Part shown: positions 3,305 to 39,559 of the stretch, one piece after another
How the letters are laid out: each line of letters opens with the position of its first letter
Numbering within the stretch: position 1 is the stretch's first letter
Assembly: GCA_030324005.1 (NCBI GenBank)
Contig: JARDVH010000059.1
Location: 64,645,828-64,709,827 of the forward strand
Reading direction: 5' to 3'
Length of the DNA: 64,000 nt
Source of the DNA: Negaprion brevirostris
Taxonomy: Eukaryota
Program-made: the position numbers and the translations under genes
The notes under the pieces: model-generated
Databases searched by the model: none
Seen by the model: only the letters and a program-made list of their open reading frames with translations
Told to the model about the DNA's origin: nothing

Positions 3305-3425
3305 GACTCGCCTGATGAAGAAGCAGTTCATGATACAAAATAAACCTGTTGGACTTTAATCTGGTGTTGTGAGACTTCTTACTGTGCCCACTCCAGTCCA
3401 ACATTGACATCTCCAGATAATGAAT
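3305..3425 (+). mobile_element. Penelope-like terminal repeat with deleted hammerhead
   Basis: CCTGATGAAG followed by AAATAAACCTGTTGGACTTTAATCTGGTGTTGTGAGACTTC; homologous to 24300-24430, but the GAAA box is deleted. Confidence 0.7.
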
Positions 3426-7744: not shown

Positions 7745-7960
7745 TTTGAATCAGGTCAATCTGCTTGGTTTAAATTTGAACACAGCCGGGCAGTGTTCCA
7801 AGTTGGGTTCTCCTTGGCAATGCCTCCACCAATCAGAGTCCACTTTCCAAACATCAACACACTCTTCTCATGGATTATGAATTGTTGTTCCCCAATAGTG
7901 TTGGAAATTTCTTGTGAGCTATCCTGATGAGTGCAAGGTGGTAGCATGTCTCCTTTTTCC
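7745..7960 (+). mobile_element. Penelope-like 3' terminal region (sister of 38600-38880)
   Basis: Shared CCTCCACCAATCAGAGTCCACTT, TTGTTGTTCCC and CCTGATGAGTGCAAG blocks. Confidence 0.75.
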
Positions 7961-14439: not shown

Positions 14440-15830
14440 GTACAGCTAGTCAATTAGATTCACTCTCCTGTTCTTCACCCAGAGCTTGATACTCTCTCTG
14501 AATATTTAATCCTCTTCTCTTTTGAATGTTACTCTTGAATCTGCTTCCTTTATTCTTTCAGGCAATACATTCCAAACTACATCACCACACCAGATTAAAA
14601 ATATTTCCTCATGTCATCATTAGTTGTCATCATTAGTTCCTTGGCTAATTAAATCTGTGTCCTTGGATATTAGGTCTTCTGCTTTTGGAAATGGTTTCTC
14701 CTTATTTAGTCCATCAAACCCACTTATGATTTTGAACTCCTCTATAAAAGTGTCTCTTAACCTTGTCTGCTCAAAGGTTAGACTCCACACATACACAAAA
14801 TTACAGCCTATCCCTGGTAGCTTGCTAATAAATTTCTTCTTCATTCTCTCTATAACCATGACTGCCCAGAATTATACAGGATATTCCCACTATAGCTGAG
14901 CCATTTATAAATTTCATAAATGTTCAACATAATTTTCTTGCTTTTGTACGTTAATCTTCTAATAGTAAAGCCAAGGATCCCTTCTGCCTTTTTAACAACC
15001 TTCTCAACTTGTGCTGCTATCTTGACATATACAAAAGTATTCATATATACAAAGGATATGCGTATATACACCCCCAATTTGCTATGTTCCTGCACCTCCT
15101 TTAAAATTGTAGCATGATGATCACGTTACCTTGCTTTATTCTCTTGCCAAAAATCCCACATCTTTGCCATGTATCTGCCATTTCAGCAATATTTCTACAC
15201 CTTCCTGTAACCATTCTCCTCCTTGTTTACTCCATTCCTGAGTTTCATGTTATCTGCAAACTTTGAAATGACACCTGCCTATCAAGTTCCGATCTGTAAT
15301 ATACGTTAACGAAGCAGTGAATATATATTACTAACAACAGTGAATATATATTACCAACAGCAGTGAATATATATTACCAACAGCAATGATATTACCAACC
15401 GCAGTGAATATATATTACCAACAGCAATGATATTACCAACAGCAGTGATATTACTAACAGCAGTGATATTACCAACAGCAGTGAATATATATTACCAACA
15501 GCAGTGATATTACTAACAGCAATGATATTACCAACAGCAGTGAATATATATTACCAACAGCAGTGATATTACCAACAGCAGTGATGTTACCAACAGCAGT
15601 GAATATATATTACCAACAGCAGTGATATTACTAACAGCAGTGAATATATATTACCAACAGTAGTGATATTACCAACAACTGTTATCTTAAAACTGACATT
15701 GCGGAAAACCACTCTGCAGCCCCCTCCAGTCTGAAAAACTGTTTGACGCTATTCTCTGCTTTCTGTCCCTTAACCAATTTATTCTATCTGTGCTTCAACT
15801 ATCCCTTTAATTCTGTAGGTTTTATCAGAA
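14440..15830 (-). mobile_element. Decayed CR1 LINE RT/3' region interrupted by a minisatellite
   Basis: Minus ORFs give AAQVEKVVKKAEGILGFTIR and RLRDTFIEEFKIISGFDG, typical of CR1 ORF2 C-terminus. Confidence 0.85.
15312..15680. repeat. Minisatellite with mixed 18 and 24 bp units (ATATTACCAACAGCAGTG, with or without AATATA)
   Basis: Roughly 17-18 tandem units directly visible. Confidence 0.95.
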
Positions 15831-21540: not shown

Positions 21541-22055
21541 AGTGTATTGCTTTTCAGAGGAAACAATTTTCACAGCAGAATATAAATAATACATCAGAAA
21601 ATCATTACTTAATATAACATAAATTATTTTCACTAACCCCAAAGAATCAGGCACTAAAAAATTCAATTTGAACAATATGTTTGTTAAAGCAAGGGAGAAT
21701 GTGTTCCCTTGGACCTACAAACATACACAAAAAGGGGCAGTAGGCCATTCGGCCCCTCAAGGCTGATTAGGGAGATTAAATTTATATTTAATATCAAAAG
21801 TTCTGAATTTTTCAGTAAATTAATATCTGAGGTATATGGATAATAAGAGCTAAATAAAAACATTTAAGTTTATCTTCCTGTGAAATGAGGTGATACTAGC
21901 TCAAGGGAAGTAGCTGATTGGTAAATAGCTGGTGAATCTTTACTGATTGCAGTCTCAGGTATATTTCTATTAAGTCAGTCAATAGTCTAGTAAATAAAGG
22001 CATGGCAGAGCATCTTGGTCTGATGGAATGAACATCCTGTCCTATGTGAGAACCA

Positions 22056-22120
22056 TGATGTGGAGATACCAGCATTGGACTGGGGTAAGCACAGTAAGAA
22101 GTCTCACAGTAAGAAGTCTT
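22056..22120 (-). mobile_element. Penelope-like terminal repeat fragment with a 15 bp internal duplication
   Basis: Reverse complement of the 3370-3420 block; CACAGTAAGAAGTCT occurs twice. Confidence 0.65.
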
Positions 22121-24300: not shown

Positions 24301-24430
24301 TATCGTCACTCCGCCTATACACTCTGTACCTGCGCACCTCACTTCACTTCACCTGACAAAGGAGGAGCACTCTGAAAGCTTGTGATTTCAAATAAACCTG
24401 TTAGACTATAATCTGGTGTCATGTGACTTC
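24300..24430 (+). mobile_element. Penelope-like terminal repeat containing a degenerate hammerhead
   Basis: TCAC-CTGACAA-AGGAGGAGCACTCT-GAAA-GCTT-GTGA followed by AAATAAACCTGTT. Confidence 0.75.
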
Positions 24431-37930: not shown

Positions 37931-38599
37931 GACAGAAGGTAGTCACTGGGGACCAAACAGAGGATTCACCAAAAGTTAAATTAATATTTAGGAGAGTANN
38001 NNNNNNNNNNNNNNNNNNNNNNNNNNNNNNNNNNNNNNNNNNNNNNNNNNNNNNNNNNNNNNNNNNNNNNNNNNNNNNNNNNNNNNNNNNNNNNNNNNNN
38101 NNNNNNNNNNNNNNNNNNNNNNNNNNNNNNNNNNNNNNNNNNNNNNNNNNNNNNNNNNNNNNNNNNNNNNNNNNNNNNNNNNNNNNNNNNNNNNNNNNNN
38201 NNNNNNNNNNNNNNNNNNNNNNNNNNNNNNNNNNNNNNNNNNNNNNNNNNNNNNNNNNNNNNNNNNNNNNNNNNNNNNNNNNNNNNNNNNNNNNNNNNNN
38301 NNNNNCCTGGGATATCATGGGGAGGGACAAAAATAAAACAGAATCTAAAAATACATAGTTTGAACAGGAACATCCTCAAACACAACAAACATCCATTATG
38401 TTGAAGGAATCCTCATCCCAGTTCTACGCCTCACGTCGGAGGCAAACCAAAGTTCTACTCCTTATCAGACAAACAAAAACAACTCCATTATTCTCCTGAG
38501 AATTCCACTGGTATCCCACCGGGATTACAATGGGAGGCCCTTGGAATCTCCTGGGAGTTTCAGCTCTCAGAAAGAAAATCACCCGGATGAAAATAACAT

Positions 38600-38880
38600 T
38601 CGTTGTTTAGTAGCAGATTTTGTCAAACCTTTTCATCTTGTACTCATCAGGACAATTACAAGAATACCAGTGTCATGGGGAACAACAACCTTATACTTTA
38701 TACTGTATAAGAGGCTGCTGATTGGTTGGCAAGTGGACTCTGATTGGTGGAGGTGTTGCCATGGAAAATGATGATAACTGACAGTCAACTGCCAAACGTT
38801 GTTTGAAATTTAAACAAGCCATTGCCCTGTGGAAAAACCATGTAATGTTATCACTTATTTTGTTTAGCTGAAACAGGCAC
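38600..38880 (-). mobile_element. Penelope-like terminal repeat (pLTR) with CCAAT/TATA-like motifs and hammerhead
   Basis: Two CCAATCAG motifs, TATAAA, then hammerhead core; homologous to 7745-7960. Confidence 0.8.
38620..38655 (-). ncRNA. Minimal type I hammerhead ribozyme (near-intact)
   Basis: Minus strand reads TTGTC-CTGATGA-GTACAAGAT-GAAA-AGGT-TT-GACAA: stem I TTGTC/GACAA, conserved CUGAUGA and GAAA boxes, short stem II, UH site. Confidence 0.75.
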
Positions 38881-38959
38881 AATGATTAGACAATTTTATG
38901 TTGTTTATTACACAAGATCATGAACAGGTGTAAGGACACTTTTGGTCCTAAAAAGTCTA

Positions 38960-39445
38960 CCTCAAATTACCCGGAAAGAGCAAGAAAACCCAAATATTTG
39001 AACAAGTGGTGAAACTAGATTTTTCACATTATGCAGTAGCAACATGAGTGGTATTTGCCACAAGCAAAATGCTGCTATCGAGCCAAAAATACACTCTGTC
39101 GATCACATAAATGAATAATGTAGTGTATGAATTTCTGTGCCAGTATGATGCCAGGTACATCCCAAAGATTGGCAGATCCTAACAAACAGCATGTTCTTTC
39201 TGCAAGGTACAGACCATACCCAACCAGTCCCAATTGCAAAACTCAAAAGACAATGTCCAACATTAGATGTAATTCTGCAGTTGGACAACATTTACTAAAT
39301 AATCCTCAGCCTGCTAAAAAAATTAAGCTGACAACCAATTTAAGATTGCCAGTCTGACCTGCAATGTGGCATATTTGTGTGTACTGGAAACTACCTATAT
39401 TAATACACAGAGCTCTGCTCTTTGCAGACAGAAAGATGTGCAACT
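38960..39445 (+). mobile_element. Penelope-like element GIY-YIG endonuclease remnant
   Basis: With frameshifts: MNNVVYEFLCQYDARY / TSQRLADPNKQHV / SAVGQHLLNNP / VLETTYINTQSSALCRQK. Confidence 0.85.
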
Positions 39446-39559
39446 ATTAAAAAGTTTTCAGATCTTTTCTAAGTGATCTTTTGTGATCCTGTCGTCACCA
39501 CCTAGTCGGGCTGCTGAAAACCCAGAATTAATGGACAAAGTTGTTCACCCTTGTTGACT

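What the first reader, a model, noticed from the sequence alone, without database searches (positions are those of the whole stretch)
38620..38655. Near-intact minimal hammerhead ribozyme on the minus strand
The RNA would read UUGUC-CUGAUGA-GUACAAGAU-GAAA-AGGU-UU-GACAA. All core boxes are present, stem I is a perfect 5 bp, stem II is 2 bp (G-U, U-A), and stem III is vestigial. Minimal type I hammerheads are established features of Penelope-like element termini and typically cleave as dimers. My inference is that the ancestor was ..GAC-GAAA-AGCU-UC-GACAA, decayed partly at CpGs. CCAAT boxes and a TATA-like motif lie just upstream on the same strand. With two other families in the window, this points to several distinct ribozyme-bearing element families in this shark genome.
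Basis: partly seen in the sequence, partly recalled or inferred. Interest (0 to 1): 0.7.

Follow-up and report, generated by a model that had tools for sequence, protein, structure and literature searches.

The report
Decayed hammerhead in Penelope retrotransposon stub
This short self-cutting-RNA motif is real and belongs to the end repeat of an old, very common Penelope-type jumping gene, a known arrangement; this copy carries four changes that likely silence it, and the one open lead is that its subfamily may have started its protein from a start codon inside the ribozyme's catalytic core.

Summary
The motif is present exactly as described (38655-38620, minus; 0 of 200 shuffles give such a hit). 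It is the minimal type I hammerhead in the pseudo-LTR of a truncated, 5'-inverted copy of a ~2.7-kb Penelope/Poseidon-type element (RT plus C-terminal GIY-YIG-like end; 3,817 first-look candidates in the genome). But this copy also lost the loop-3 palindrome (AAGCUU to AAGGUU, not a CpG change) that dimer cleavage needs; its double-hammerhead fold scores +10.6 kcal/mol against -1.7 to -9.3 for intact copies, so it is likely dead. Six family copies join the hammerhead directly to the ORF's 5' end, so the motif sits at the start of the transcription unit. Side lead: in sister subfamilies an AUG just 3' of stem I is in frame; in this copy's subfamily that AUG is out of frame and the AUG inside CUGAUGA is in frame (39 of 45). 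Untested, and a one-in-three coincidence is possible. PLE minimal hammerheads are known since 2014, and this scan has reported them on other DNA many times, including in this genome.

The parts
38620..38655 (-). Minimal type I hammerhead motif (stem I 38655-38651/38624-38620; CUGAUGA 38650-38644; stem II/loop 38643-38635; GAAA 38634-38631; loop 3 to U16.1 38630-38626; position 17 at 38625; expected cut between 38625 and 38624)
38626..38631 (-). Loop-3 segment, AAGGUU here; palindromic AAGCUU in the family (C in 69 of 87 unselected copies, G in 4 including this one)
38645..38647 (-). AUG formed by core residues A6-U7-G8; in frame with the ORF in this copy's subfamily (inferred candidate start codon; no ORF follows in this copy)
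38691..38747 (-). Promoter-like boxes: CCAAT at 38747 and 38725, TATAA at 38702 and 38695; function untested
38602..38884 (-). pLTR arm of the insertion: last ORF codons, promoter-like region, hammerhead, and a short tail with an internal deletion of about 27 nt
38883..39461 (+). Inverted arm: decayed 3' part of the PLE ORF (GIY-YIG-like C-terminus), opposite in orientation to the pLTR arm
   Evidence: 67-71% to L028, L011, L003, inverted; tblastn 38955-39458, E 2e-6; joints 38884/39436 on opposite strands in all 4 runs
7808..7940 (+). Second, more decayed copy of the same family; CUGAUGA kept, GAAA box and loop 3 lost

Best explanation
The motif is the minimal hammerhead of the pseudo-LTR of an old Penelope/Poseidon-type retrotransposon family, left here in a truncated, partly inverted copy in which it is likely no longer able to cut. 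[quoted passage not shown] Inferred from published work: in the active ancestor the RNA started just upstream of the hammerhead, and two hammerheads (tandem copies) paired through the AAGCUU palindrome, possibly helped by the element's protein, to cut after C17. Inferred for this copy: loss of the palindrome, of G10.1-C11.1 and of C17, and no same-strand partner nearby, make cleavage unlikely; it is neutrally decaying DNA.
For: 3,817 first-look candidates, 40 scored, 44 matches at 72-100%. Shared 3' ends, variable 5' ends and inversions. Walk to the 5' end; L091, L092, L098, L102 (twice) and L107 join hammerhead to ORF 5' end. 284 protein relatives at E<=0.001 for one ORF piece; 11 of 11 long ones tested carry RVT_1; they map along family copies and onto window 38955-39458. 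CpG decay pattern. Of 87 unselected copies 26 keep the core, 0 keep core, stem I, palindrome, G10.1-C11.1 and C17; 6 such copies occur among pattern-selected loci. Double-hammerhead energy +10.6 kcal/mol for this copy versus -1.7, -6.9, -6.9, -9.3 for four intact copies; stem I pair probability 0.0 in 126-nt context. Outer stem I pair changes between subfamilies while keeping pairing (U-A 78, C-G 17, G-U 12; 127 of 184 paired vs 102.5 shuffled).
Against: No cleavage or RNA data: inactivity rests on nearest-neighbour energies, which also do not favour the hammerhead fold as minimum for most intact copies, and the anole PLE hammerhead cuts only with protein (PMC11167929), so folding models may understate activity. 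Pfam gave no hit at its cut-off for 9 of 9 decayed ORF fragments and no GIY-YIG Pfam hit on the 11 homologs; the endonuclease call rests on a motif read by eye (recalled) and on homology. The covariation is confined to one of five pairs and non-partner columns nearby show similar mutual information (0.15-0.25), so it reflects a few subfamily-level events. No target-site duplication was found. The hammerhead region is slightly better conserved than the upstream pLTR (A/T columns 0.91 vs 0.85), but so are the adjacent 19 columns (0.90).
Confidence: 0.85

Rival explanations
1. This copy is still a weakly active ribozyme: transcribed from its CCAAT/TATA-like boxes into flanking DNA, it cuts slowly in trans with transcripts of other copies or with protein help.
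For: All core boxes and a 5-bp stem I are intact, a state found in 14 of 87 unselected copies (core plus stem I >=4); promoter-like boxes kept; short-helix-II hammerheads can cut slowly (PMC13725137, passages).
Against: Palindrome broken (self-duplex +2.6 vs -4.3 kcal/mol), C11.1 and C17 lost, alternative fold dominant; even intact PLE minimal hammerheads were inactive as monomers and weak as dimers (PMC4209133).
Confidence: 0.1
2. The motif belongs to a non-autonomous short element (retrozyme or SINE-like) rather than to a coding PLE.
For: Most copies are short stubs: first-look candidates fall from 3,817 at the pLTR to 689, 228, 88 and 53 further 5'. Tandem retrozymes are reported in one chondrichthyan (10.64898/2026.07.22.740005, passages).
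Against: Homology continues without a break from the pLTR through a full RT-endonuclease ORF to the next hammerhead, and this very copy carries about 550 nt of the ORF 3' part; no tandem array at the site.
Confidence: 0.04
3. Chance match to a short motif.
For: The bare core pattern occurs at chance level in the window; Rfam has no hit.
Against: 0 of 200 shuffles with the full descriptor; 30 exact genomic matches of the intact core pattern against 0 for the reversed control.
Confidence: 0.01

Closest known systems
Minimal hammerheads (min-HHR) in pLTRs of metazoan PLEs, incl. fish Xena, Poseidon, Neptune, coelacanth, Xenopus (Cervera and De la Pena 2014, PMC4209133; read parts 1-2 of 4)
   Same: Type I core, 4-5 bp helix I, no true helix III, palindromic 15.2-16.2/loop 3, G10.1-C11.1 in the ancestor, mostly solo truncated copies, opposite-strand pairs a few hundred bases apart.
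   Different: Helix II only 2 bp with no unpaired base after A9 (the paper reports that base as conserved and, for Schistosoma, 7-8 bp helices); no cartilaginous fish is named in the parts read; supplements not seen.
PAc, Poseidon of Anolis carolinensis (Frangieh et al. 2024, PMC11167929; read parts 1-2 of 4, supplements searched without hits, figures and GenBank file not seen)
   Same: Hammerhead at the pLTR-ORF junction, overlapping the ORF start; tail defined by clustered 3' ends; RT plus C-terminal GIY-YIG.
   Different: PAc ORF starts at the start of stem II with C3 and G8 before the start codon; here sister subfamilies have an in-frame AUG just 3' of the cut and this copy's subfamily has the in-frame AUG at A6-U7-G8. 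PAc is active; no intact ORF of this family was found.
EN+ Penelope insertions with inverted arms and tail (Arkhipova et al. 2013, PMC3846280, passages; Craig et al. 2021, PMC8557442, passages)
   Same: Truncated copies with inverted parts, optional 30-40 bp tail, pLTR with TATA box that includes the first ORF codons.
   Different: Here the inverted arm is ORF 3' sequence rather than a second pLTR, and no TSD is left.

Membership tests
Minimal type I hammerhead (min-HHR) | Conserved core boxes CUGANGA, GAAA, UH | tested here: met
   H is U here, C in the ancestor
Minimal type I hammerhead (min-HHR) | Helix I of 4-5 bp closing the motif | tested here: met
   5 of 5 pairs here; outer pair covaries between subfamilies, inner four show no covariation
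Minimal type I hammerhead (min-HHR) | G10.1-C11.1 pair and helix II | tested here: inconclusive
   G-U in this copy, G-C in the ancestor by CpG pattern; only 2 bp, no covariation seen
Minimal type I hammerhead (min-HHR) | Palindromic 15.2-16.2/loop 3 for dimer formation | tested here: not met
   Not met in this copy (AAGGUU); met in the family (AAGCUU)
Minimal type I hammerhead (min-HHR) | Site-specific self-cleavage | not testable with these tools
   No RNA run listed; needs an assay
Penelope-like element, EN+ (Penelope/Poseidon) | Single ORF with RT | tested here: met
   Homologs with RVT_1 map along family copies; RT motifs visible in the majority translation; individual copies are broken
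Penelope-like element, EN+ (Penelope/Poseidon) | C-terminal GIY-YIG endonuclease, no Neptune-type Zn-finger linker | tested here: inconclusive
   GIY-YIG-like motif and absence of a Cys linker read by eye; no Pfam GIY-YIG hit
Penelope-like element, EN+ (Penelope/Poseidon) | pLTR with hammerhead at both ORF ends; inverted/truncated copies; tail | tested here: met
Penelope-like element, EN+ (Penelope/Poseidon) | RT phylogeny inside the Penelope/Poseidon clade | not tested
Non-LTR retrozyme | Non-coding tandem units each with a hammerhead | tested here: not met
   No tandem array at the site; coding sequence attached

The most novel reading that the evidence does not exclude
In this copy's subfamily a 2-nt loss threw the family's usual start codon (just 3' of stem I) out of frame and translation moved to the AUG formed by catalytic residues A6-U7-G8, so the start codon is the ribozyme core and each cut removes the start of the RT-endonuclease ORF: a built-in switch between message and template.
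Probability: 0.3. Interest if true: 0.5.

Novelty: new member of a known kind. Interest (0 to 1): 0.2.

Why it matters
As found, little: it adds one more decayed PLE hammerhead family to a class described in 2014, and gives natural intact copies (L123, L126, L127, L137) with an unusually short 2-bp helix II for assays. If the start-codon lead held, one element family would offer both layouts side by side (cut upstream of the AUG versus cut inside the ORF), a natural comparison for the open question of what PLE hammerheads are for.

Tried and rejected
Rfam scan: no hammerhead model hit at E<=10. Pfam on 9 decayed ORF fragments: nothing at cut-off. Word-based protein search: 0 of 92 candidates; the HMMER search succeeded. 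Sequencing runs: no RNA holder listed; the 4 runs laid were contigs dominated by paralogous copies, so conservation of this locus in other organisms could not be read. TSD search: only one 7-nt match, rejected as chance. First idea that the core AUG is the start for the whole family: rejected after the unbiased spacer survey showed the commonest spacer puts it out of frame; among junction copies only 1 of 7 measurable was in frame. Splicing at the T-tract/CAG after the hammerhead: considered by eye, rejected because the intron would be about 40-66 nt and would remove the only AUG. Test of whether this subfamily's ORF was open: inconclusive, majority of 34 copies hops between frames where coverage is 3-10. 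Search for young intact PLEs to test the start-codon layout: open frames found belong to other families or short contigs and none showed a hammerhead at its 5' end. Lunse et al. 2017 on dimer cleavage was not held; seen only as a reference title. Six literature searches listed no paper on shark PLE hammerheads or on an AUG inside the CUGAUGA box; most subscription journals and Repbase/Dfam were not searchable, so this does not show absence from print.

Full report
Observation. A descriptor asking for both core boxes, stem I of 5 or more pairs, stem II of 2 or more and a short loop 3 hits only this site in the window and none of 200 dinucleotide shuffles. The core pattern alone is at chance level (5 found, 3.5 expected), and Rfam lists no hammerhead among 12 matches at E<=10. 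CCAAT (38747, 38725) and TATAA (38702, 38695) lie upstream on the same strand.

It is a repeat. A search of the own genome with 38500-38960 gave 3,817 first-look candidates; 40 were scored, giving 44 matches, the best non-self ones 73-81% identical over window 38884-38617. Copies share their 3' end just past the hammerhead, differ in 5' extent and often hold inverted parts. Of 114 instances most end 20-55 nt after stem I, and six (L091, L092, L098, L102 twice, L107) run on for more than 300 nt into the element's 5' coding part. Walking upstream closes the unit at about 2.7 kb from hammerhead to hammerhead (my sum of the aligned pieces).

It is a Penelope-like element. One 153-residue open piece found 284 proteins at E<=0.001; 11 of the longer ones were scanned and all 11 carry RVT_1. 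They align along the family copies from the first codons after the hammerhead to the C-terminus, and their C-terminal part matches window 38955-39458 on the plus strand (best E 2e-6). A GIY-YIG-like motif and the lack of a cysteine linker were read by eye (recalled motifs); Pfam did not report GIY-YIG. So the window insertion has two arms: 38884-38602 (minus: last codons, promoter-like region, hammerhead, tail with a deletion of about 27 nt) and 38883-39461 (plus: inverted ORF 3' part). Contigs from four public runs join 38884 to 39436 on opposite strands, as colinear family copies would. No target-site duplication is left.

Ancestor and decay. Median divergence from the majority at non-CpG columns is 15%, lowest 7%, this copy 10% (biased, since it was the query). 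This copy differs at four places: 38641 (loop II), 38635 (C11.1 to U), 38625 (C17 to U) and 38628, where a non-CpG change turns the palindrome AAGCUU into AAGGUU (C in 69, G in 4 of 87). Of 87 unselected copies 26 keep the core, 14 also stem I, 5 also the palindrome, and 0 also G10.1-C11.1 and C17; an exact-pattern search found 30 copies with the intact core (control 0), and 6 copies pass all tests. The double-hammerhead fold scores +10.6 kcal/mol for this copy and -1.7, -6.9, -6.9 and -9.3 for four intact copies; in context stem I has pair probability 0.0. These are model energies only. The outer stem I pair is U-A, C-G or G-U in different subfamilies (127 of 184 paired, 102.5 in shuffles), but the four inner pairs show no covariation and neighbouring non-partner columns carry similar information, so this counts as two or three events.

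Mechanism. Shown: order pLTR promoter-like boxes, hammerhead, ORF. Inferred from PMC4209133 (parts 1-2 of 4 read): such motifs lack helix III, are inactive alone and cut weakly as dimers paired through the palindrome. From PMC11167929 (parts 1-2 of 4): the anole Poseidon hammerhead overlaps the ORF start, cuts only with the element's protein, is not needed for insertion in vitro, and the tail marks internal reverse-transcription starts. PMC3846280 (passages) notes a pLTR that includes the first 12 codons, and inverted arms. The window copy has no same-strand partner; the other family copy in the window (7808-7940, plus) has lost GAAA. I put it at 85% that this is a dead PLE hammerhead.

Start-codon lead. 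Among copies closest to the window, the modal distance from the AUG in CUGAUGA to the ORF frame is 45 nt (18 of 54; 24 of 54 multiples of three, p=0.058), and the minus copy in L102 reads in that frame into the conserved N-terminus, with stops from decay. An unbiased survey went against generalising this: of the first 100 of 626 matches, 41 have a spacer two bases longer and 18 the window-type length (counted by hand). I fetched 60 of the first 62 listed and 59 were readable: 22 had the longer spacer, the core AUG was out of frame in all 18 where it could be located, and an AUG just 3' of stem I was in frame in 10 of the 11 that kept one. In the window's subfamily (spacer AAAAUGUC) 39 of 45 genome-wide matches have lengths that put the core AUG in frame and 5 of 45 the downstream AUG (the core itself was not in the pattern). 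A pLTR tree separates the longer-spacer group from the window's group, though noisily. Either this subfamily's master switched to the core AUG, or it was non-coding and the frame is a one-in-three coincidence; the ORF-integrity test was inconclusive and only 1 of 7 measurable junction copies was in frame. I give the switch 0.3.

Comparison and novelty. Works like, and by most tested features is, a min-HHR in a Penelope/Poseidon-type pLTR; this copy fails the palindrome feature, the family meets it; clade placement by tree was not done. Papers seen: PMC4209133 and PMC11167929 (half of the text each), 10.64898/2026.07.22.740005 (part 1 of 5 and passages; reports retrozymes in one chondrichthyan and PLEs in five vertebrate classes), PMC8557442, PMC3846280, PMC6155905, PMC6765202, PMC13725137 (passages). 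Supplements of PMC4209133 and of the preprint were not seen and may list cartilaginous-fish families. Earlier notes of this scan describe the same kind of feature in many windows, four of them in this genome; the sequence look-up found no look-alike. Verdict: real, ordinary, new member of a known kind; interest 0.2.

Noticed in passing
window 24353-24431 (+); related remnants at 3310-3422, 22054-22108, 27632-27680: A second hammerhead-bearing repeat family with a longer stem II, core decayed; a similar motif lies 3' of an RT-like open frame in L173, so it is probably another PLE family.
   Followed up: partly
window 58366 (+): Weak hammerhead-like match with two core mismatches; probably chance.
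   Followed up: no
L145, L148, L159, L170 (short contigs C11832, C16959, C4716, C14609): Stop-free PLE-like frames of 464-767 codons on short contigs, unlike the decayed chromosomal copies; young families or foreign DNA.
   Followed up: partly
L102, L028, L004, L017, L026, L027: Pairs of family hammerheads on opposite strands 150-1,200 bases apart (head-to-head insertions), the known complex PLE layout.
   Followed up: partly
family copies, 3' ends: 3' ends cluster about 20-25 and 50-57 nt after stem I, about 30 nt apart, like the two reverse-transcription starts that define the PLE tail.
   Followed up: partly
window 15307-15730: Tandem array of 18/23-nt units (periods 41, 59, 118).
   Followed up: no
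window 38000-38305: Assembly gap 300 bases downstream of the hammerhead on its strand.
   Followed up: no
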